In this document: positions 9,878 to 35,949 of the stretch, one piece after another | Numbering within the stretch: the first letter of the stretch is position 1 | Layout: each line of letters begins with the position of its first letter | Origin: a virus | IMG/VR virus record: IMGVR_UViG_3300037882_002024 | Coordinates: 7,245-71,244 of that record | Strand: one strand, 5' to 3' | Length of the DNA stretch: 64,000 nt | Notes under the pieces: generated by a model | What the model was told of the DNA's origin: nothing | Databases searched by the model: none | The model's input: the letters and a program-made list of their open reading frames with translations, nothing else | Translations under genes and position numbers: made by a program

Positions 9878-10096
9878 GTGAAAGATGAATTTTTGAAGCT
9901 GGCCGAAGAGACGCTTAGCAAGATCGAAGACGATGTGCCGCCCGAGGCAGTAGACAAAGCGCTAGACTTTTTCGAGTCGGTTTCGGAGAAGATCAGCGAC
10001 ATGGTGGAGCGCGTCGAAGCGGGCGCCCCTGTCACTGAGGGCATGATGCAAGCGCTCCAAAACATGAGCGCAGGAGTTGATAAGTGGATACCGTAG
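9878..10096 (+). CDS. small acidic hypothetical protein
   Basis: GTG start after box and GAG; helical acidic sequence. Confidence 0.55.
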   Translation: MKDEFLKLAEETLSKIEDDVPPEAVDKALDFFESVSEKISDMVERVEAGAPVTEGMMQALQNMSAGVDKWIP

Positions 10097-10659
10097 TCGC
10101 TTTTTTGCCGCCTCAATGCTCAACGGTGTGGGCAGGCCTGTATTGGCCGCGTGAGGATTGGCTATGCGACTTTTGGCGCTCCGAGACAGGCAGCTACTTG
10201 ACAGTGTTGCGCAAGGGCATGCAAGCAGCGCGTCGCGACGTGACGCTTATTCCTGCGCCGGTTTCGCTTACGGTGCTGGCGCACTACAGTGACCCGCGCC
10301 CCGTAGAGCCGACCGCGATGTGGAGCGCGTTTGCGCAGCACGAGCCGAAGGCCTTGGTGTTTTGCGGCCTTGTGGCTTACGGGCGTTGGCTAGACTTCTA
10401 TGAGCGCGCTGATGTGGCGCGCCAAAGGATCGTTGAGAGAATCCCGGCCGTTGTTCTGCCGCACCCATTGTCAAGTGCGGCAAGACGGCCTTATTACGAG
10501 GACGCAGGGCGAACCGTGGCAACGGCGACACTATTCCCATTCCACGGAATCCGGCGACTCAAAGTTATCCGAGGTAAGCATGATTGGGAAGAAACGAATT
10601 ACGGCCGCGAGCGTGAACTATGTCGCGATGGCCGTGAAGGCGGGCACGCTGCAAGTTAA
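10084..10659 (+). CDS. hypothetical protein, weak uracil-DNA-glycosylase-fold-like motifs
   Basis: ALVFCGLVAY and VVLPHPLS resemble UDG-superfamily motifs; N-terminal catalytic motif not recognised. Confidence 0.3.
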   Translation: MDTVVAFLPPQCSTVWAGLYWPREDWLCDFWRSETGSYLTVLRKGMQAARRDVTLIPAPVSLTVLAHYSDPRPVEPTAMWSAFAQHEPKALVFCGLVAYGRWLDFYERADVARQRIVERIPAVVLPHPLSSAARRPYYEDAGRTVATATLFPFHGIRRLKVIRGKHDWEETNYGRERELCRDGREGGHAAS

Positions 10660-10975
10660 TTTCAACGCTGTGCCGTGGCTGCGGGACGCCGAAGTGGCCG
10701 AGTTGAAAGAGATTATGGATGGCCAGCGCGGCCACTACCCGCTCTGCCACGCAGCCGAGTACGCCGCCAAGGCCATTGGGGAGCGCCCCGCCATTGGCAA
10801 GCGCTTGGCGTTCTTCTTTGCGGGCCTGCGCAACAAAGCGCGCTATCGCCTGTCGTCAGACTTCGAGGCCACCATCGACCGCGAGGCCATGTTGTGCTGG
10901 CTGCGCGAACACAACAAGGCCGCATGGCTGCGCTTGATGAGCCATCTCAAGGCGCCCGAAGGGGCGCCCGCGTGA
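10580..10975 (+). CDS. hypothetical protein
   Basis: GAGG RBS then ATG 10580. Confidence 0.55.
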   Translation: MIGKKRITAASVNYVAMAVKAGTLQVNFNAVPWLRDAEVAELKEIMDGQRGHYPLCHAAEYAAKAIGERPAIGKRLAFFFAGLRNKARYRLSSDFEATIDREAMLCWLREHNKAAWLRLMSHLKAPEGAPA

Positions 10976-11226
10976 AGGTAGCTATCGACGTAAGTGGCTT
11001 CTCGCCGATGGAAGCTACTTACGTGGCAAGGCTCACCGCAGATGTGCCGACGCTGCAATGGACGGACGCCTGCGTGGCGGATCATAACGAGGCCTCGTGG
11101 ACAGCGCATGAGGCCGAAGTGCTTGGGGCCGTGATGTTGGCGATAGGCTACTTTATCGGCGTCGGCCTGCCGGTCGAAGAAGCCGAGATGCTGGCTAAGA
11201 AAATTGCGAGGCAGTGGTGTGATTAA
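10972..11226 (+). CDS. hypothetical protein
   Basis: GTGA overlap with upstream stop. Confidence 0.5.
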   Translation: MKVAIDVSGFSPMEATYVARLTADVPTLQWTDACVADHNEASWTAHEAEVLGAVMLAIGYFIGVGLPVEEAEMLAKKIARQWCD

Positions 11227-11400
11227 GCGCAGCGGCGATTGGTTGTTCGATAGCAGGCCGGGCGGATGGCTGCTGTGTATTCTTGCGGGGCTGTTGTGCG
11301 CAGCCCTTGCGCTTGGCAGCCTCGTAATCGTGGTGCAGAACGCTGACCTGATTGCGGTGTTCTTCGAGGCGTTGCGAGAGAATCTGTAACCGAGGGAAGC

Positions 11401-15179: not shown

Positions 15180-15308
15180 CCCAGAGGCGACGGGGATGGC
15201 GACCCGTTACGATGCCAAGCAGAGATGCACTACGCGATCAGGCGGGCGCTGCAAGTCTGTGCGTTAGCGGGTAAAGGTGCAAGCCGGTTCGATTCCGGCC
15301 CTTTGGGA
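15180..15308 (+). ncRNA. tRNA-like RNA with 8-bp acceptor stem and enlarged central domain
   Basis: CCCAGAGG(15180)/CCTTTGGG(15300) acceptor; D-like arm GACGGG/CCCGTT; canonical T-arm GCCGG-TTCGATT-CCGGC; about 74 nt replace the anticodon/variable arms; intergenic. Confidence 0.6.
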
Positions 15309-21214: not shown

Positions 21215-22063
21215 ATGGCAGCCCACGATATTTTGGACGCGCCCGATGTCGAGAAGGAAGTGCCGGAAGGCATCATCGACGACGGCGTATGCAACGAGTA
21301 TCACGAGAACGGCAAGCGTTGTCGGCGGCGTTGCATGCGTGGGGAGTTCTACTGTAAGACTCATTCTAATGTGCCGCGCAGGCAGCAAAAAACGTATATG
21401 TACTCGAAGCACTTGCCGACGCACTTGCGTAACGCGTACAAGCGCATTGCGGAGTCGGGCGACCTGCTAACGCATCAGCACGATATTGCACTGATGCAAG
21501 TGCGCTGCAATGAGCTAGCAGGGCGCTTGGCCAGTGGGGAGAGTAACGACCGCTGGCACAGTCTGCGCGAACAGTTCGAGCGCTTCCGCAATGCGAATCG
21601 GATGATGGGTTCCCCGGACGAGGCCACGCGCCAGCAGGCAGCGGTAGAGCAGCGTGAGGCTCTGCAGGCCGTTGACCAAATTATTTCGTCAGGCGTCGCT
21701 GATGAAGCTAATTGGGATGACCTGCAAAACGCGATTAGCTTCAAGAGTGAATTGCAAGCCAAGGAGTGGAAGCGCCTGCGTGAGATGCAAGCCGTGGCCA
21801 CTGCTGAGCAGGTGCGCACCCTCGTGTTCGCTATCACCACCAGCGTGCTGCGCAACGTCCCCGACGCGAATCAGCGACGCGCTATCGTGACCGATATTAT
21901 GACGCTGCGCGTGTTCGACGTGTCGATTGCGTCACCGTTTCCCGAAGGCATGACTAACGATGGCCGACAAGGTAAGCCGCCAGCGGACAATCAACGAGAT
22001 TCTCAACCCATCGGAGACGCCCGACCCGCTGGGCAGCCCGATGATGGCGCAGCTACTCAATGA
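21215..22063 (+). CDS. putative terminase small subunit
   Basis: GGGAG RBS; N-terminal Cys/His cluster (C...CRRRC...YCKTH) then helical body; immediately upstream of and overlapping TerL. Confidence 0.55.
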   Translation: MAAHDILDAPDVEKEVPEGIIDDGVCNEYHENGKRCRRRCMRGEFYCKTHSNVPRRQQKTYMYSKHLPTHLRNAYKRIAESGDLLTHQHDIALMQVRCNELAGRLASGESNDRWHSLREQFERFRNANRMMGSPDEATRQQAAVEQREALQAVDQIISSGVADEANWDDLQNAISFKSELQAKEWKRLREMQAVATAEQVRTLVFAITTSVLRNVPDANQRRAIVTDIMTLRVFDVSIASPFPEGMTNDGRQGKPPADNQRDSQPIGDARPAGQPDDGAATQ

Positions 22064-24968
22064 ATTTTGCTCGATGATCGAGCCGCCCAGCGAAGAGCTT
22101 CTGACGCTGCAGAACAAGTACGAGAACAGTTTCTACGAATTTACCAAGGCCATGTGGCCGATCATCGAGCCTGCGGCCCCGTGGGTCGATGGCTATATCG
22201 TGCAGTGCGAGTGTGAGCATTGGGAAGCCGTCCTACGCGGCGACATCAAGAAGCTCATCATCAATCAACCTCCACGGCATGGGAAGCCCGTGGACGAACG
22301 GGCACTCGTCCTGATGGCCAGCGGCCAAAGGAAGATGCTACGAGATGTTGTTGTTGGCGATGCCGTTATCACTCACAAGGGGCGCGCCAAGAAAGTAACA
22401 GCAGTCTATGAGCAAGGTCTGCTGCCTGTGCTGCGCATCATGACGAACGCCGGGCGGGTAGTGCGCGCTGCATATGACCACCCTTTCCTAACGGCAGATG
22501 GATGGAAGCGCGCCGATCAGCTTCGACTTGGTGATTCTCTGGCCGTGGTGTCGATGTACGGCGGCTTTGATAAGTCATCGGACTATATGACCGATTACGA
22601 GTTCCGCTTGGCTGGCTATTTCATCGGCGACGGTGCCACTAAAATATATAAGTCATCGAGCGCTTGTAGCATCACATGCAAAGACGCTGTCGAAGGCGCT
22701 GACCTTATGGCCTGCGCAGCGGCAATGGGCTTTGCGGTCAACCACACGCCGCGCAACTATCGCTATAACTTTTCAGACGGCGCGCGTAGTTGGTTGCATG
22801 CTGTAGGGATTGCTGGCCACGGCTCGTACACCAAGCGCGTTCCCGAATTTGTTTTCCGTGGCAGCAATGACCAAGTAGCGCAGTTTGTTGGGGCCTACTT
22901 TGCGTGTGATGGTTATGTAAGCGCCAAGGGGCGCGGCCGCGAAAAGAGGATGCGAGAGGATTTAGAGTTTAGCTTTTCGAGTGTCAGTCGTGCGCTTCTT
23001 GAGGACGTGCAGCACTTGCTTGCGCGTCTTGGGATCATGATGCGGCTGCGTGCTAAGCGCCAAAAGATGGCCGATGGATCGAGCTACGACAGTTTTTTGT
23101 TGGTTGCCACCAGCCAAGAAGAGGTTGCTAAATTCGCTGATCGTATTCCCGTTCGGCACACAAAAGCTACGCGGCTTGCCAAAGAGAGGTTTCAGCGACA
23201 GCGCTTTAATGAGGCCTTGCACGCAGACAGCATCGTAGTAATTGAGCCGGACGGCGAAGCCGTTTGTCGGTGCCTGTCAGTGGACGACGATCAAACGTTT
23301 ACGGCAAGCGACCTCGTTGTTCACAACAGCATACGCGCAGCGGTAGCGTTCTGCACGTGGACATGGACGCAGAAGCCGCACTACCGCTTCATTTACGCAA
23401 GCTACTCGGACATGCTGGTAAAGCGGGACAGCATCCGCAGCCGCGACGTTATCCTGCATGAGTGGTATCGCAATTTTTGGGGCAACAAATTCCGGCTGAA
23501 ATACGACCGCAACACGCAGCACGTATTCGAGAATACGCAACGAGGCTTCCGCTTTGCCACCACGCCCGGCGGCGTGGCGACAGGGGAAGGCGCCGAGATT
23601 ATCATTGGCGATGACCTTGTGAGCGCCGAGGGGGCACGCAGCAAAGCCGAGAACGAACTCGTGTACCGCTTCTGGACACAGACGCTCGGTAGCCGCGTGA
23701 ACGATCCATCGAACGTGGCGCGCGTGCTTACCATGCAGCGCTTTAACCGTGCTGACATCGCGGGGCGCATGATCGCCGAGGAGCATGGCTACGAAACGCT
23801 CGTGCTTCCCTTCGAGTGCGAGCGTAAGCGCTACTTCCTGCCGACCAAAGAGAATGCTGTTGACAGGCCCCGTGATGCCATCGTGCCGACGAAGTTGCAG
23901 CTAGCCGACCCGGCCTTGATGGATAACCGCAAGGAAGGCGAGCTATTGTGGCCTGAGCGATTTTCGCCTACGGCGGCGAAAGAGTTCAAGCTGAGTATTG
24001 GGGCAGGCGTTCCGGGACAGCTACAGCAGCGTCCTAGCGCTGAAGGCGGCTCGATTGTGCGCTCGGAGCGCTTCCAGCTATGCTACGAGACGTGGATCGA
24101 CGGTGCGCTGCACTTCGTTCTAGGCGAGGCCACCGAAGACACGCGCCCGCGCGTCGTGAAGGCGTCCGATTGCTTTTGGTTTCAGTGCGCTGATACTGCG
24201 CAGACAGCTACGACGAGTAATGACCCGACTGCTATCGGCACGTTCTGCCGCACGCCGTCCGGGGAGTTGATTGTTTACCACATCTTCTGCGAGCATCTGG
24301 AGTATCCGGACCAATGGCCCGCGATGTGTGAGCTACGCGTGGGACGCGCTGCATGGGACCGCTACAACCAGCGCTGGGCAGTGCGCGGGGCTGCGTTCCC
24401 GTGGCCGTGTCCTTTATCGTGGCAGGGCGTCGAGCCGAAGTCTACCGGGGAAAGCCTTATCCAGACAGCCCGGCGCGTCGGGATTGCCTTGCACCGCTTG
24501 AATGTGTACGCAGGCGACAAGCAGCAGCGTGGCGCGCCATTGGTGATGATGTATGAGCAAGGCATGGTATACCACTTGGCGTCCGGCCCGTGGCGCGTGG
24601 ACATGGAAGAACAGATAAGCGAGTTCCCCAATGCAGCCCACGACGACATCTTCGACATCGTGAGCTACGCGGCGATGGAGTGCCAAACGATGGCGCTTAC
24701 CATCTACAAAGGCGACTTGATTTACAACGCTAGCGTTGGCGAAACAATGGCACGCAATGCCGAAGCGAGCGTACCGGACGTGTTTCGCGACCGTGGAAAT
24801 GAGAGGCGTGATCGGTTGGCCGAGCCGGTCAAAGAGGCTGTGGGCGAAGTCGATGAGATTGCAGCTACACTTGCGGCGCTCGAAGCAGGCTACCAGCGTC
24901 AGCAAGTACAGGCCAACGAGCAGACATCGCCGCTTGACGACATCTTGCGTAGGCTGAATGGTGGCTAA
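21960..24968 (+). CDS. terL: terminase large subunit, intein-containing
   Basis: Walker A NQPPRHGK|S split by intein; YASYS, Walker B IIIGDD, VLTMQR, QQRP, nuclease CADTA and FPNAAHDDIFD; start may be ATG 22041. Confidence 0.95.
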   Translation: MADKVSRQRTINEILNPSETPDPLGSPMMAQLLNEFCSMIEPPSEELLTLQNKYENSFYEFTKAMWPIIEPAAPWVDGYIVQCECEHWEAVLRGDIKKLIINQPPRHGKPVDERALVLMASGQRKMLRDVVVGDAVITHKGRAKKVTAVYEQGLLPVLRIMTNAGRVVRAAYDHPFLTADGWKRADQLRLGDSLAVVSMYGGFDKSSDYMTDYEFRLAGYFIGDGATKIYKSSSACSITCKDAVEGADLMACAAAMGFAVNHTPRNYRYNFSDGARSWLHAVGIAGHGSYTKRVPEFVFRGSNDQVAQFVGAYFACDGYVSAKGRGREKRMREDLEFSFSSVSRALLEDVQHLLARLGIMMRLRAKRQKMADGSSYDSFLLVATSQEEVAKFADRIPVRHTKATRLAKERFQRQRFNEALHADSIVVIEPDGEAVCRCLSVDDDQTFTASDLVVHNSIRAAVAFCTWTWTQKPHYRFIYASYSDMLVKRDSIRSRDVILHEWYRNFWGNKFRLKYDRNTQHVFENTQRGFRFATTPGGVATGEGAEIIIGDDLVSAEGARSKAENELVYRFWTQTLGSRVNDPSNVARVLTMQRFNRADIAGRMIAEEHGYETLVLPFECERKRYFLPTKENAVDRPRDAIVPTKLQLADPALMDNRKEGELLWPERFSPTAAKEFKLSIGAGVPGQLQQRPSAEGGSIVRSERFQLCYETWIDGALHFVLGEATEDTRPRVVKASDCFWFQCADTAQTATTSNDPTAIGTFCRTPSGELIVYHIFCEHLEYPDQWPAMCELRVGRAAWDRYNQRWAVRGAAFPWPCPLSWQGVEPKSTGESLIQTARRVGIALHRLNVYAGDKQQRGAPLVMMYEQGMVYHLASGPWRVDMEEQISEFPNAAHDDIFDIVSYAAMECQTMALTIYKGDLIYNASVGETMARNAEASVPDVFRDRGNERRDRLAEPVKEAVGEVDEIAATLAALEAGYQRQQVQANEQTSPLDDILRRLNGG
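22287..23327 (+). mobile_element. 347-aa intein with LAGLIDADG homing endonuclease (class-3-like, Pro start)
   Basis: Begins PVDERALV right after the Walker A Lys; block B AAYDHPF; LAGYFIGDG and FVGAYFACDG; block F CRCLSV; ends VVHN followed by Ser. Confidence 0.92.
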
Positions 24969-28104: not shown

Positions 28105-28135
28105 AGAAGCGGCCACATGGCCGCTTCTTTTTTTT
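28105..28135 (+). terminator. intrinsic terminator
   Basis: AGAAGCGGCC-ACAT-GGCCGCTTCT followed by T-run. Confidence 0.85.
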
Positions 28136-28145
28136 GGAGTTCATA

Positions 28146-28937
28146 ATGATTCGTTGGCTACTGCGCGTCACAGGCCTTGCCTTCCTGATTCGGCGCACCG
28201 AGTTTAACCGTCCGCGCTTGAGCTTGCAGCTAATCAAGTTTGGCAACGATAGCGAACTCACAGGCCGTTGGACGCTGTGCGTGCTTAACCAGTTCGTGCG
28301 CCTGTGGGATTCACGCACGCCTTTGGTCGATCCTGATGGCATGCTCGACGGCTATGGCGTGTATTACTGCAGCGATTTGAAGACGCTCGTATTATGCTGG
28401 GGTTCCATACGCTCGCGTGGCTCAAGGCATTGGCGTATTCCGATGCCGTGGCAACGACGACGCCTGACGCACGAGGCCTTGCTGAAAGACGGTACGTGGC
28501 GCAAGCTCGCGTGGATTGAGGGCTGGTTGTCATGGCGCGGGCTGCGTTACGCGCAGAGTCCGTGGAAACCAGAAGAGCTTGCAGCCCTTGCAGGCCAGCA
28601 GCCGGACCCGCCTTACCCCGATGTGGTGCCTCAGTGGGTAAACGTGAGGCCGTTCTTTTATCGCTTGCGCAGTGGAGCGCATCAAGATACAGTAGCCACC
28701 ATCACCTGTGACCGATCGAAGTATACTTGGGCGCTATTCTGTTGGTTGCGTTTGCCTATCGTGACGAGGTGCCATCGTGCGCTGTGGTTCAGCTTAGCTG
28801 ACGAGATTGGCGCAGGCGTTGGGAGTTATAAGGGCGGCACCGTTGGCGCAGGCGATTATCTTAAGCGCGGCGAGTTGCCTTTGCTGGGCGCGCTGCGCAT
28901 CGAGATTGAATGGTCGAAGCGCCATCGTTTCGGGTAA
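28146..28937 (+). CDS. Trp-rich hypothetical protein
   Basis: GGAG RBS; 263 codons. Confidence 0.6.
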   Translation: MIRWLLRVTGLAFLIRRTEFNRPRLSLQLIKFGNDSELTGRWTLCVLNQFVRLWDSRTPLVDPDGMLDGYGVYYCSDLKTLVLCWGSIRSRGSRHWRIPMPWQRRRLTHEALLKDGTWRKLAWIEGWLSWRGLRYAQSPWKPEELAALAGQQPDPPYPDVVPQWVNVRPFFYRLRSGAHQDTVATITCDRSKYTWALFCWLRLPIVTRCHRALWFSLADEIGAGVGSYKGGTVGAGDYLKRGELPLLGALRIEIEWSKRHRFG

Positions 28938-31087: not shown

Positions 31088-31159
31088 GGCTGGGAGAGCG
31101 CAGCCTCGCTACGCTCTGCCACATGGCGCCGGGGCAAAGTTTTTACAATGCTCCGGCGC

Positions 31160-31201
31160 TTAAAAATAATTAGTTGACATCTGCCGAAGTGATGCTAGGA
31201 T
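31160..31201 (+). promoter_or_regulatory. sigma70 promoter of the ncRNA/tRNA locus with box abutting the -35
   Basis: TTAAAAATAATTAG(31160)-TTGACA(31174)-16-TAGGAT with TG extension. Confidence 0.8.
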
Positions 31202-31207
31202 ACTTAC

Positions 31208-31921
31208 ATCAAAGACGCAAGGCCGATGCAAATGTGCTGACAGCTTTGCCGATGAGATGCTCAGGAGTCAGAGTATAACTGACCACGATCTGAGCCGTGC
31301 GTTATTACGGCCCGCCGAGGAACAGGGGCGCACCTTGTCCGCTCTGGAGTCCGAGGGTAAATGACCGCGCGGGAAGGCGTTTAACGAGCGGCGTTGGGAG
31401 TGTTGCTTCGGCAGCACAGCGCCTAAAAAGCATCCGGTGGTGGGAGACCTTAGCGAGAGCTACGAGGCACCTGAAAAACATCCGGCGCGAGAGCGCCTAA
31501 AATATCGGTTGCGTTCTTCTGGTGAACAGGCCAGACCTGTGCATTCCTGCTGCACGAACGCATTTGCGGGCCGTCTTAGCGCTTGTTGGAAACCTGCGCT
31601 ATGGCATTCCTTGGCCCGCACCCCTAAACTGGCTTGGTGTTTTGTTGTAAGGGCGCCAAGTCAGGGGCTGCAAGGAATGGTCATCTTGCAGCCCATTTGA
31701 ACGCTAGCGCGCGAAAGCTCTTGATTGGGCAACGGGAGCAAGTAGCGCGCTAGCTACCTAATACCCTTAAATGGGTAAGGCGAAGGCTTCGGCCTAGCCA
31801 TCACTAGGCCTGTGCGCCGCTCAGACATGACGCACAGACAATCCTAGGCCACCGCAGCAGTCCCTCCGTTTGCTGCGGTGCAAGGTGAAAGGCCTGCTGA
31901 AAGGCTGAGTAACCTTCTTCA
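31208..31921 (+). ncRNA. large, highly structured ncRNA candidate (GOLLD/ROOL-like size and context)
   Basis: No RBS-led ORF; many helices: GTGTTGC-TTCG-GCAGCAC, AGC-GAGA-GCT, GGCGC-GAGA-GCGCC, TGCGGGCC/GGCCCGCA, 12-bp 31630-31663, GGGCTGCAAG/CTTGCAGCCC, GCTAGCGCGC/GCGCGCTAGC with GAA/AGTA internal loop, ACCGCAGCA/TGCTGCGGT; directly upstream of tRNAs. Confidence 0.7.
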
Positions 31922-31995
31922 GTGGCACTTGTGTAAGGGAAACATACCGGCTCGTTAGGCCGGCGATGGGAGTTCGATTCTCTCGTGCCACACCA
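31922..31995 (+). tRNA. tRNA-Asn(GTT) with encoded CCA and atypical C33
   Basis: GTGGCAC/GTGCCAC acceptor, GTGT/ACAT D-stem, CCGGC-TCGTTAG-GCCGG, GGGAG-TTCGATT-CTCTC, ACCA 3' end. Confidence 0.85.
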
Positions 31996-32060
31996 CACAC
32001 GCCGCAGTCGCGGCTCACGATGCTCTGTAAAGGGCGCTCCGCAAGGGGTTGACAACGATG

Positions 32061-32102
32061 CCCGGCTGGTCGGTTTTCGAGGCCAAGGCCAGCCGGGTTT
32101 TT
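32061..32102 (+). terminator. terminator-like hairpin
   Basis: CCCGGCTGGTC...GGCCAGCCGGG followed by T5. Confidence 0.6.
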
Positions 32103-32175
32103 GATGCGATAGCTTAAACGGTAAAGCAACCGCCCTCTAAGCGGCACTACTGAGGTTCGACCCCTCTTCGCATCC
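32103..32175 (+). tRNA. tRNA-Arg(TCT)-like with atypical C33
   Basis: GATGCGA/TCGCATC acceptor, GCTT/AAGC D-stem, CCGC-CCTCTAA-GCGG, GAGG-TTCGACC-CCTC. Confidence 0.75.
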
Positions 32176-32176
32176 T

Positions 32177-32283
32177 ATCCACGAAGCCGGAAACGCGGAC
32201 GCGCGACGTTAGGCACGTTCTGGCCGCAATGCTGGCAGCGGGTTTACGGAACCAATTCGCAGGTGCAACGCCTGCCGTGGATA
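32177..32283 (+). tRNA. tRNA-like RNA (GTT loop) with ~41-nt branched variable region
   Basis: ATCCACG/CGTGGAT acceptor, CCG/CGG D-stem, CGCGC..ACGTTAG..GCACG anticodon-like arm, T-arm GCAGG-TGCAACG-CCTGC. Confidence 0.55.
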
Positions 32284-32285
32284 CT

Positions 32286-32358
32286 GCGCTCTGTGGGCAA
32301 CCGGAGAAGCCGCCCCGCTTAGGTGGGGAGAATGCTGGTTCAATTCCAGCCGGGCGCA
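32286..32358 (+). tRNA. degenerate tRNA-like RNA, anticodon ambiguous (CTTAGG loop)
   Basis: GCGCTC/GGGCGC acceptor with bulge, GGC/GCC D-stem, CCCCG/TGGGG stem with 6-nt loop, GCTGG-TTCAATT-CCAGC. Confidence 0.6.
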
Positions 32359-32366
32359 TTGCAAGT

Positions 32367-32469
32367 AGGGTCGTGCCCGAGTTGTCTAAGGGTGACCGGA
32401 TGCAAGACGCAACCTCTGGCGCACCGGGCCGATAGAGGGTGCGCCACAGGTGCGAATCCTGTCGCCCTG
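32367..32469 (+). tRNA. class-II-like tRNA-like RNA with poorly paired anticodon arm (GCA loop) and long variable stem
   Basis: AGGG/CCCT acceptor extended by GCAAGT/GCTTGC; D-arm TGCCCGAGTTGTCTAAGGG; variable stem TGGCGCACC/GGTGCGCCA; T-arm ACAGG-TGCGAAT-CCTGT. Confidence 0.55.
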
Positions 32470-32488
32470 CTTGCTTTTTAGGTGCATC

Positions 32489-32725
32489 ATGAAGGCCATC
32501 TTTTTGCTCGTAACACTTCTCGGCGCAGGCTGCGCGCAATCCAACCTCGAAGACGCTCAGCGGCGCTGGCAGCCCCAGCATGGTCGCGAGCAAGAGCGCA
32601 AGACGTACACAGTAAAGCGTCGCACGCCATCAGGCGTCATCATCACCTACACCGTGACGCCTAACTACAAGCCGGAAGACTTCAAGCATGCGCGCACCTA
32701 CAAGGTGCCTGTGCGCGCTGACTAA
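32489..32725 (+). CDS. small predicted lipoprotein
   Basis: MKAIFLLVTLLGAGC lipobox; TAA stop in box 32722. Confidence 0.6.
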   Translation: MKAIFLLVTLLGAGCAQSNLEDAQRRWQPQHGREQERKTYTVKRRTPSGVIITYTVTPNYKPEDFKHARTYKVPVRAD

Positions 32726-35077: not shown

Positions 35078-35314
35078 ACTGCCCGCGAAGCCGTCAAGCA
35101 GGACGATGCAGACAGCGCCCTCGTTCGTTTGGCGCGGTGCCTGCTCGTTAAGGCCAAGCCAGCAGGCCTTAACGCGCTGCTTGATGACTACGAACCGATC
35201 TTTATCGACGCCGTCGAGCCTCACGTTGACAGCGTCGCTATCTACGCACACGGCCTCAAGATCATCGTCAAGGCGGCGCTGGTCAGCGAGGCCCCACAGG
35301 AGAAGGCAGTATGA
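35072..35314 (+). CDS. hypothetical protein, start uncertain
   Basis: Open frame beginning at the TTG of the truncated promoter; ends in ATGA overlap with the kinase gene. Confidence 0.4.
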   Translation: MTTAREAVKQDDADSALVRLARCLLVKAKPAGLNALLDDYEPIFIDAVEPHVDSVAIYAHGLKIIVKAALVSEAPQEKAV

Positions 35315-35949
35315 AGCTGATGATCGTAATGCAGGGCGCGCCCGGTAGCGGAAAGTCCACCGAGGCCAAGCGCCTGCAAGCAGAGTTCGGGATCGACGCC
35401 ATCGTGAGCGCTGACGACTACCACACAGGCGCTGACGGAGTTTACCGCTTCGACTATCGGCGTGTCGGGGAGTGCCACGAGAGGGCGCAGAACGCCGCGC
35501 GGCTTCTGATGATGGAGAGCAAGTCGCTCATCGTCGACAACACGAACATATGGGCGTGGGAAGCCAAGCCGTATGTTGTGCCTGCTGTACTCCACGGGTA
35601 TCTTATCGCCTTTGTCCGGTGCCATGAGAATCGACCGAACATTCATGGCGTGCCCGAGGACAAGGTGCGTCAGATGCGAGACAGCATGGAGCCGCTAACT
35701 GTTCAGCACTGCCTTTCGGCGCTGCGGCCAAACTCGGCAGCGTCGGCAATGAAAGCCGCTCGCGAAGGAAGCTACAGCCTTTGCAAGGCTGCTGGCGCTG
35801 CGCTTGGTTCAGGGCCTATTCCGATGCTAAGCGCTCCGGCTGCTGTCATCGGCGAGCCGAGTCCGTACAACTACTCTGCGGCCAAGCTGGCCGAGCAAAG
35901 CTACGCAGGGGGCAAGAGTGAAAATCAGAATGTACCTGATGACGTGTGA
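35311..35949 (+). CDS. P-loop kinase (AAA_33 / polynucleotide kinase-like)
   Basis: MQGAPGSGKST, IVSADDY, SLIVDNTN, NIHGVP. Confidence 0.8.
   Translation: MKLMIVMQGAPGSGKSTEAKRLQAEFGIDAIVSADDYHTGADGVYRFDYRRVGECHERAQNAARLLMMESKSLIVDNTNIWAWEAKPYVVPAVLHGYLIAFVRCHENRPNIHGVPEDKVRQMRDSMEPLTVQHCLSALRPNSAASAMKAAREGSYSLCKAAGAALGSGPIPMLSAPAAVIGEPSPYNYSAAKLAEQSYAGGKSENQNVPDDV

What the first reader, a model, noticed from the sequence alone, without database searches (positions are those of the whole stretch)
31922..32283. tRNAs that replace the near-invariant U33 with C
Seen: the anticodon loops read TC-GTT-AG (31952), CC-TCT-AA (32134) and AC-GTT-AG (32206). All have C at position 33 despite otherwise well-formed arms, and the first has an encoded CCA. 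Known: U33 forms the anticodon U-turn and is almost universal, and phage tRNAs with altered anticodon loops can escape host anticodon nucleases (PrrC/RloC, PARIS, colicin/VapC-type). Repeated C33 suggests selection: nuclease-resistant substitutes, decoys, or substrates for C-to-U editing.
Basis: partly seen in the sequence, partly recalled or inferred. Interest (0 to 1): 0.7.

Follow-up and report, generated by a model that had tools for sequence, protein, structure and literature searches.

The report
Phage tRNAs carrying C33
Two real transfer-RNA genes of an uncultured phage, whose host is probably a Planctomycete, carry C where almost all tRNAs have U33; the same swap is kept under selection in about 12% of spare tRNA genes in Planctomycete tRNA arrays, so it is probably a maintained variant and not decay, though its purpose is untested.

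Summary
Two of the three claimed C33 tRNAs are real. They are tRNA-Asn(GUU) at 31922-31995 (C33 at 31953) and tRNA-Arg(UCU) at 32103-32175 (C33 at 32135). The third (32206) is not a tRNA: its loop is a 5-nt hairpin inside a 110-nt branched element.

The window is part of an 87.7-kb phage whose capsid relatives lie in Planctomycetota genomes. Contigs from two freshwater runs match the Arg gene, C33 included, without a difference.

C33 is rare in general: 2 of 406 tRNAs in 120 unrelated viral contigs, and 0 of about 100 host-type Planctomycete tRNAs. In 18 dense Planctomycete tRNA arrays it occurs in 32 of 268 tRNAs (12%). Those tRNAs show no extra stem damage. Five tRNA-Tyr copies keep the loop CCGUAAC through 10 compensatory pair changes.

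C33 therefore looks maintained. Escape from a host enzyme that reads U33 is the best guess but is untested. Published data show that colicin E5 and gamma-toxin still cut C33 substrates. Both window tRNAs also lack textbook identity elements and sit next to degenerate tRNA-like elements, so decay or a decoy role remains possible.

This scan has noted C33 in phage and array tRNAs many times on other DNA.

The parts
31142..31201 (+). Two promoter-like sites upstream of the non-coding stretch that ends in the tRNA cluster
   Evidence: Consensus scan gives TTTACA-17-AATAAT and TTGACA-16-TAGGAT. One adapter-flanked metatranscriptome fragment maps at 31221-31355. This is a single record and is not proof of transcription.
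31922..31995 (+). tRNA-Asn(GUU) with loop UCGUUAG (C33 at 31953), encoded CCA, G1-C72 and A73
   Evidence: ARAGORN; Rfam 48.9 bits; cloverleaf minimum-energy fold, z -2.8. U33 is the only conserved position that deviates.
32061..32102 (+). Terminator-like hairpin: 9-bp G+C stem (CCCGGCTGG / CCAGCCGGG) with a 19-nt loop, then TTTTT, abutting the 5' end of tRNA-Arg
   Evidence: Read directly from the sequence. The scan tool did not list it because its loop limit is 8 nt.
32103..32175 (+). tRNA-Arg(UCU) with loop CCUCUAA (C33 at 32135), U20 instead of A20, C73 and no encoded CCA
   Evidence: ARAGORN; Rfam 49.5 bits; cloverleaf fold. Contigs of two runs are identical over it. Its anticodon arm equals that of a Planctomycete host tRNA-Arg except for G27A and U33C.
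32176..32285 (+). 110-nt branched element closed by an 8-bp stem.
   Evidence: No ARAGORN or Rfam match. The fold gives a 5-nt hairpin loop at 32205-32219 and shows no T-loop.
32286..32358 (+). tRNA-like gene with a 6-nt anticodon loop (CUUAGG) and a bulged acceptor stem
   Evidence: ARAGORN calls it 'tRNA-???'. Rfam gives 30.2 bits, just above the cut-off.
32365..32471 (+). Type-II-like tRNA remnant with D- and T-arm motifs and a 9-bp variable stem but no anticodon arm. An ORF starting at 32489 follows directly
   Evidence: Sequence and fold. ARAGORN calls it only with relaxed settings.

Best explanation
These are two genuine phage-borne tRNA genes, Asn-GUU and Arg-UCU, in the accessory region of a phage that probably infects a Planctomycete.

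Their C33 is an instance of a maintained variant that is common in the mobile or accessory tRNA pool of that phylum and absent from the host's housekeeping tRNAs sampled.

The most likely working is this. The tRNAs are transcribed with the surrounding leader, processed, and used to read AAY and the rare AGA codons. The U33-to-C change, together with the other loop changes (positions 32 and 38 in Asn, 27 in Arg), makes the anticodon loop a poor substrate for a host factor that reads U33. That factor would be an anticodon-loop nuclease or a modifying enzyme.

Shown here: the genes, C33, its rarity elsewhere, and its enrichment and conservation in Planctomycete arrays.

Inferred: that the two window genes share that selection, that they are charged and used, and which host factor is avoided.
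For: - Gene calls and folds support both tRNAs.
- Two runs reproduce the Arg gene with C33.
- A related read has a changed acceptor stem, CCATGCG/CGCATGG, that still pairs.
- Host link: capsid relatives lie in Planctomycetota bins and in a Bremerella genome. The Arg anticodon arm is ACCGC-CCUCUAA-GCGGC against host GCCGC-CUUCUAA-GCGGC.
- Baseline: 2 C33 in 406 viral tRNAs, and 120 of 120 seed Arg-UCU genes have U33.
- Host-type tRNAs: 0 of 61 and 0 of 46 lack U33.
- Planctomycete arrays: 32 C33 in 268 tRNAs, spread over 12 of 18 arrays, Fisher p 1e-11.
- C33 tRNAs carry 0.88 stem mismatches on average against 1.04 for U33 tRNAs. T-loop invariants are intact in the first 44 mobile-element tRNAs examined.
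- Five tRNA-Tyr copies from five genomes keep the loop CCGUAAC through 10 compensatory pair changes. One of them scores 42.6 bits as a tRNA.
- An array tRNA-Arg(UCU) has the same loop CCUCUAA and the same T-loop as the window gene and scores 50.8 bits.
- An Acb3-like CBASS-inhibitor gene lies 3 kb upstream, so this is an anti-defence neighbourhood.
Against: - No orthologue of either window tRNA was found, so conservation of C33 in these two genes is not shown.
- The Asn gene has A73 and G1-C72, where host tRNA-Asn has G73 and U1-A72. The Arg gene has U20 and C73.
- A20 and A/G73 (Arg), G73 (Asn), and U1-A72 for the amidotransferase are published identity elements (PMC9976931).
- The three elements downstream are clearly degenerate.
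- A terminator-like hairpin stands directly before tRNA-Arg.
- AGA makes up only 65 of 1928 Arg codons in the phage.
- C33 does not protect against colicin E5 or gamma-toxin (PMC1635277, PMC2275089).
- No expression data cover the tRNAs themselves.
Confidence: 0.45

Rival explanations
1. Decay. The cluster is the remnant of a once larger phage tRNA array. Asn and Arg are the least damaged members, and C33 is simply the mildest tolerated hit in genes under relaxed selection.
For: - The three adjacent elements have lost normal anticodon arms.
- The Arg gene has two stem mismatches, U20 and C73. The Asn gene has A73 and G1-C72.
- Rfam scores of about 49 bits compare with 65-81 bits for host tRNAs.
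- No orthologues are available to show constraint.
- A distant relative phage carries tRNA-like genes with odd loops.
Against: - The same base change at the same conserved position in both genes is unlikely under random decay. U33 is the only conserved position hit in either gene.
- C33 array tRNAs of the same phylum are demonstrably constrained and score in the same 47-60 bit range.
- The Asn gene has perfect stems and an encoded CCA.
Confidence: 0.25
2. Non-decoding tRNA-like RNAs. The whole cluster is kept for its tRNA shape, for example as decoys that occupy a host tRNA-directed defence protein or as processing signals. The anticodon loop is then free to vary or is tuned for binding.
For: - Standard identity elements are missing in both tRNAs (PMC9976931).
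- U32 and G38 can pair in tRNA-Asn, which shrinks the loop to 5 nt in the minimum-energy fold.
- The neighbours keep T or acceptor arms but have rebuilt anticodon regions.
- In a distant relative, three Glu-scaffold paralogues have perfect stems but the loops CGCAAUG, CUGCGAUG and GCGAGGA.
- PMC12409363 raises the possibility that some viral tRNAs do more than rescue translation.
Against: - Both window genes keep exact 7-nt loops with sense anticodons and A37.
- In the arrays, C33 tRNAs cover many ordinary isoacceptors within near-complete decoding sets. This fits use in translation.
Confidence: 0.17
3. C33 is edited to U after transcription, so the mature tRNAs are canonical.
For: C-to-U editing of tRNA anticodon loops exists in other systems (own knowledge). 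Nothing found here supports it.
Against: - The phage has no match to the one deaminase family searched, PF00383, even at E 0.1.
- Twelve of 18 arrays in many genomes would each need such an activity.
Confidence: 0.03
4. Sequencing or assembly error.
For: No laid record covers position 31953 in tRNA-Asn.
Against: The Arg gene is reproduced without difference in contigs of two runs, though one of them may be the source sample. The same change occurs in both genes and in many independent assemblies.
Confidence: 0.02

Closest known systems
Phage tRNAs with anticodon-loop substitutions proposed or shown to resist host tRNases: mycobacteriophage C1 tRNAs against VapC (van den Berg et al. 2023, PMC10264068), and T5 tRNA-Lys, Thr and Asn against PARIS AriB (PMC11464382, PMC12409363)
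   Same: These are phage-encoded tRNAs whose loops differ from the host's at non-anticodon positions. tRNA-Asn(GUU) is among the protective T5 tRNAs. The window genes also lie near an anti-defence gene.
   Different: Those papers do not mention position 33 (0 occurrences in PMC10264068). The AriB determinants lie at positions 36-41. No nuclease, cleavage site or resistance is known for this host.
Long tRNA arrays (L-arrays, or tRNA array units) of bacteria, e.g. the Anabaena trn operon (Santamaria-Gomez et al. 2021, PMC8421152; Tran et al. 2015, PMC4758250)
   Same: Both are an accessory, horizontally moving tRNA pool. The paper lists Planctomycetes among phyla with L-arrays. Here such arrays hold the same C33 variant, including an Arg-UCU with an identical loop.
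   Different: The window holds only two canonical tRNAs plus remnants, on a phage. PMC8421152 does not mention U33 (0 occurrences).
Eukaryotic cytoplasmic initiator tRNA-Met, the textbook natural C33 tRNA (own knowledge)
   Same: A functional tRNA with C33 shows that the U-turn position can be C in a working tRNA.
   Different: It is an initiator that binds the P site, and it is eukaryotic and unrelated. The genes here are elongator-type bacterial tRNAs.
tRNA pseudogenes and remnants in phage tRNA clusters
   Same: Degenerate neighbours, and Rfam scores lower than those of host tRNAs.
   Different: The two genes keep full cloverleafs, and the deviation is confined to the same single position.

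Membership tests
tRNA (Rfam RF00005) | Score above the curated cut-off with a full-length cloverleaf | tested here: met
   48.9 and 49.5 bits against a 29-bit cut-off, model positions 1-71. The minimum-energy fold is a cloverleaf.
tRNA (Rfam RF00005) | Conserved T-loop (G53 T54 T55 C56 R57 A58 C61) and D-loop (A14, G18 G19, A21) | tested here: met
   All are present in both genes.
tRNA (Rfam RF00005) | U33 before the anticodon | tested here: not met
   C at 31953 and at 32135.
   No ARAGORN or Rfam match at E<=10. The fold gives a 5-nt loop.
Bacterial tRNA-Asn | GUU anticodon | tested here: met
Bacterial tRNA-Asn | Discriminator G73, and U1-A72 for the amidotransferase route (PMC9976931) | tested here: not met
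   The phage gene has A73 and G1-C72. All host and array tRNA-Asn sampled have U1 or A1 at the 5' end with a pairing partner, and G73.
Bacterial tRNA-Arg | C35 and U36 or G36 | tested here: met
   The anticodon is UCU.
Bacterial tRNA-Arg | A20 and A/G73 (PMC9976931) | tested here: not met
   The D-loop AAACGGUA gives U20, and the discriminator is C. Host tRNA-Arg(UCU) has A20.
Nuclease-insensitive phage tRNAs | Loop differs from the host isoacceptor at non-anticodon positions | tested here: met
   Asn is UCGUUAG against host CUGUUAA. Arg is CCUCUAA against host CUUCUAA.
Nuclease-insensitive phage tRNAs | Resistance to a defined host tRNase, and rescue of infection | not testable with these tools
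   No host isolate or nuclease is known. Published data say C33 does not block colicin E5 or gamma-toxin.
Maintained C33 variant of accessory tRNAs | C33 conserved among diverged homologues with compensatory stem changes | tested here: inconclusive
   Met for array tRNA-Tyr, with 10 compensatory pairs in 5 sequences. For the two window genes no orthologue was found.

The most novel reading that the evidence does not exclude
C33 marks a distinct 'shadow' tRNA pool. Phages and mobile tRNA arrays, at about 12% of members in Planctomycetota and preferentially before G34, have repeatedly replaced the near-universal U33. The replacement lets their tRNAs escape a widespread but still unidentified host enzyme that reads U33. 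Escape would let translation continue when housekeeping tRNAs are attacked. The window's two tRNAs would be phage members of that pool.
Probability: 0.3. Interest if true: 0.75.

Novelty: new variant of a known kind. Interest (0 to 1): 0.5.

Why it matters
U33 is one of the most conserved nucleotides in biology. If mobile elements systematically and selectively replace it, that points to a host activity aimed at the U-turn nucleotide and to a simple sequence mark for counter-defence tRNAs.

It also matters for annotation, because such genes tend to be scored low or called pseudogenes.

The papers checked on phage tRNAs and tRNA arrays do not mention position 33. The enrichment and covariation measured here in Planctomycete arrays are directly testable leads.

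For this window alone the case is weaker: two genes, no orthologues and no expression data.

Tried and rejected
- The anticodon-arm pattern scan of viral contigs hit only terminator hairpins.
- Searches for orthologues of the two tRNAs or their flanks found nothing usable. These were blastn against phages, the GroES-like neighbour, the downstream 171-aa ORF, DNA against 401 Planctomycetota genomes, which gave only host tRNA-Arg at 77-80% identity, an Asn pattern in viral contigs, and an Arg pattern in metagenome contigs, which hit one unrelated AT-rich phage array with U33.
- Relatives found through the 348-aa protein and the capsid are distant (38-60% identity) and mostly lack tRNAs.
- Homologues of the G008 array were not found at E 1e-20.
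- The arrays with many C33 tRNAs are not in genomes that carry this phage's capsid type.
- 933W argN and argO were checked as a possible precedent. Both have U33.
- The phage has no match to the dCMP/cytidine deaminase, Rnl2-type RNA ligase or TGT families. A queuosine or repair link is therefore not supported, although a P-loop kinase of the AAA_33 / polynucleotide-kinase type is present.
- The element noted by another reader near 15180 gave no tRNA-like match.
- Coverage gaps in the laid runs, including position 31953, say nothing either way.

Full report
**What is there.** The window is bases 7245-71244 of a single 87,710-bp virus record with 57% G+C. It carries portal, prohead protease and HK97-type capsid genes.

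ARAGORN and Rfam agree on three tRNA-type genes, all on the + strand:
- tRNA-Asn(GUU), 31922-31995, 48.9 bits.
- tRNA-Arg(UCU), 32103-32175, 49.5 bits.
- A borderline tRNA-like gene, 32286-32358, 30.2 bits, with a 6-nt anticodon loop.

The Asn loop reads U32 C33 GUU A37 G38, and the Arg loop reads C32 C33 UCU A37 A38. Both genes fold into cloverleafs as their minimum-energy structure.

The letters ACGTTAG are at 32206-32212, but their flanks cannot pair as an anticodon stem. The local structure is a 5-bp hairpin with a 5-nt loop, inside a 110-nt branched element (32176-32285) that no tRNA model recognises. A fifth element, 32365-32471, looks like a long-armed tRNA that has lost its anticodon arm.

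The five elements lie nearly back to back. Promoter-like sites at 31142-31201 lie about 0.7 kb upstream of the first element, and an ORF starting at 32489 follows the last. A terminator-like hairpin with a T5 tail (32061-32102) abuts tRNA-Arg.

**Artefact?** Contigs of two freshwater-metagenome runs (32027-32177 and 32059-32209) match the Arg gene, C33 included, with no difference. One of these runs may be the source sample. No laid record covers the Asn position. A third run holds a roughly 90%-alike relative of the Arg gene whose acceptor stem has changed on both strands and still pairs, but its letters at position 33 were not shown.

**Host.** A capsid profile finds relatives in Pirellulales and Planctomycetaceae genome bins and in a cultured Bremerella genome. 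The Arg anticodon arm is ACCGC-CCUCUAA-GCGGC. That is the arm of tRNA-Arg(UCU) in two Planctomycetota genomes (GCCGC-CUUCUAA-GCGGC) plus two transitions, G27A and U33C. A Planctomycete host is therefore likely, and C33 is a derived change.

**Is C33 more than chance?** I built three comparison sets with ARAGORN.
- Unrelated viral contigs: 120 IMG/VR contigs seeded by an Arg-UCU pattern that allowed C or U at position 33. All 120 seeds had U33. Among the 406 unique tRNAs with 7-nt loops on these contigs, 401 had U33, 2 had C, 2 had G and 1 had A.
- Host-type Planctomycete tRNAs: 0 of 61 lacked U33, and 0 of 46 in small clusters.
- Dense Planctomycete tRNA arrays. I found these first by accident (a 29-gene array with 4 C33, and an 11-gene array with 1 C33 next to a primase-like gene in the Bremerella isolate). 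I then searched without bias for three closely spaced T-loops in 401 Planctomycetota genomes, and 65 genomes had such arrays.

In 18 arrays, 32 of 268 unique tRNAs carry C33 (11.9%). These are spread over 12 arrays, and the contrast with the viral baseline gives Fisher p 1e-11.

The enrichment is specific to position 33. T-loop invariants are intact in the first 44 mobile-element tRNAs examined. C33 tRNAs have no more stem mismatches than U33 ones in the arrays, 0.88 against 1.04.

C33 is more frequent before G34 (19 of 91 against 13 of 177, p 0.002). Homologous arrays make these counts non-independent.

**Is C33 maintained?** tRNA-Tyr(GUA) carries the loop CCGUAAC in five arrays from five genomes. 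In their alignment 10 of 25 base pairs show compensatory double changes while the loop stays invariant. One copy scores 42.6 bits as a tRNA. Other C33 array members score 47-60 bits, the same range as the window genes. Glu-UUC, Val-GAC, Leu-GAG, Ile-GAU and Ala-CGC also recur with C33. One array has an Arg-UCU with the same loop CCUCUAA and the same T-loop TTCGACC as the window gene, on a different scaffold. In this phylum, therefore, C33 is a selected state of working-looking tRNAs and not decay.

**How far does that carry over to the two window genes?** Only by analogy, because no orthologue was found in any collection.

There are also real doubts about ordinary function:
- The Asn gene has A73 and G1-C72. 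Host and array tRNA-Asn have G73 and U1-A72 or A1-U72.
- The Arg gene has U20 and C73, where host genes have A20.
- These are published identity elements for AsnRS, the amidotransferase and ArgRS (PMC9976931).
- AsnRS is present in three and missing above cut-off in two of five Planctomycete genomes checked, so the charging route depends on the unknown host.
- AGA is the rarest Arg codon of the phage, at 65 of 1928.
- The three neighbouring elements are degenerate.
- A distant relative phage carries three Glu-scaffold paralogues with perfect stems but non-canonical loops, one with G33, one with 8 nt and one with C33. That pattern fits either decay or a non-decoding use of the tRNA shape.

**Mechanism.** An Acb3-like CBASS inhibitor lies 3 kb upstream, so the neighbourhood is an anti-defence one.

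Where position 33 has been tested, however, C does not protect. Colicin E5 needs only a pyrimidine there, and gamma-toxin cuts U33C normally. CdiA-CT(EC536) cuts between positions 32 and 33, but no C33 data exist for it.

The phage has no match to the cytidine/dCMP deaminase, Rnl2-type ligase or TGT families. I therefore rate the readings as follows:
- A maintained variant that probably avoids a host enzyme reading U33: 0.45.
- Decay: 0.25.
- Decoy or other non-decoding use: 0.17.
- Editing: 0.03.
- Artefact: 0.02.

**Novelty.** The library holds no paper that links C33 with phage or array tRNAs. Earlier notes of this scan report C33 in phage and array tRNAs of many other genomes, so the phenomenon is not new to the project.

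This report adds three things: a Planctomycete phage case, a measured 12% rate against 0.5% and 0% in the comparison sets, and covariation evidence from Planctomycete arrays.

Noticed in passing
L261:8614-9979 (Logan contig of a distant relative phage): Three paralogous tRNA-like genes on a tRNA-Glu-type scaffold have perfect stems and T-loops but the anticodon loops CGCAAUG (G33), CUGCGAUG (8 nt) and GCGAGGA (C33). A tRNA with a UCA anticodon lies at 1344-1415.
   Followed up: partly
window 28134-28937: An ORF matches Pfam Acb3, a CBASS inhibitor (E 4e-18). It lies 3 kb upstream of the tRNA cluster.
   Followed up: no
window 35311-35949: A P-loop kinase of the AAA_33 / polynucleotide-kinase / KTI12 type (phrog_505, PF13671). 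No Rnl2-type RNA ligase was found in the genome.
   Followed up: partly
window 21960-24968: A 1002-aa ORF carries an intein splicing domain and a LAGLIDADG endonuclease domain.
   Followed up: no
window 31221-31355: One adapter-flanked 135-nt fragment from a freshwater metatranscriptome run maps just after the promoter-like site, in the non-coding stretch upstream of the tRNAs.
   Followed up: no
window 32117-32167 (run X2, record 5): A roughly 90%-alike tRNA-Arg relative is present in another freshwater run. Its acceptor stem, CCATGCG/CGCATGG, differs on both strands and still pairs. Its position 33 could not be read.
   Followed up: partly
L263-L292, L119, L255 (Planctomycetota genomes): Dense tRNA arrays occur in 65 of 401 sampled Planctomycetota genomes. 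C33 is about three times more frequent before G34 than before other wobble bases. The arrays also hold members with 6-nt and 8-nt loops (L284 CCCCGG, L283 CGUAUGAG) and one with U37 (L119 Ile-GAU).
   Followed up: partly
L255:100-1503 and 9987-11331 (Bremerella isolate genome): An 11-gene tRNA array sits at the junction between a DUF5906 primase-like gene and ordinary chromosomal genes, as at the end of an integrated element.
   Followed up: partly
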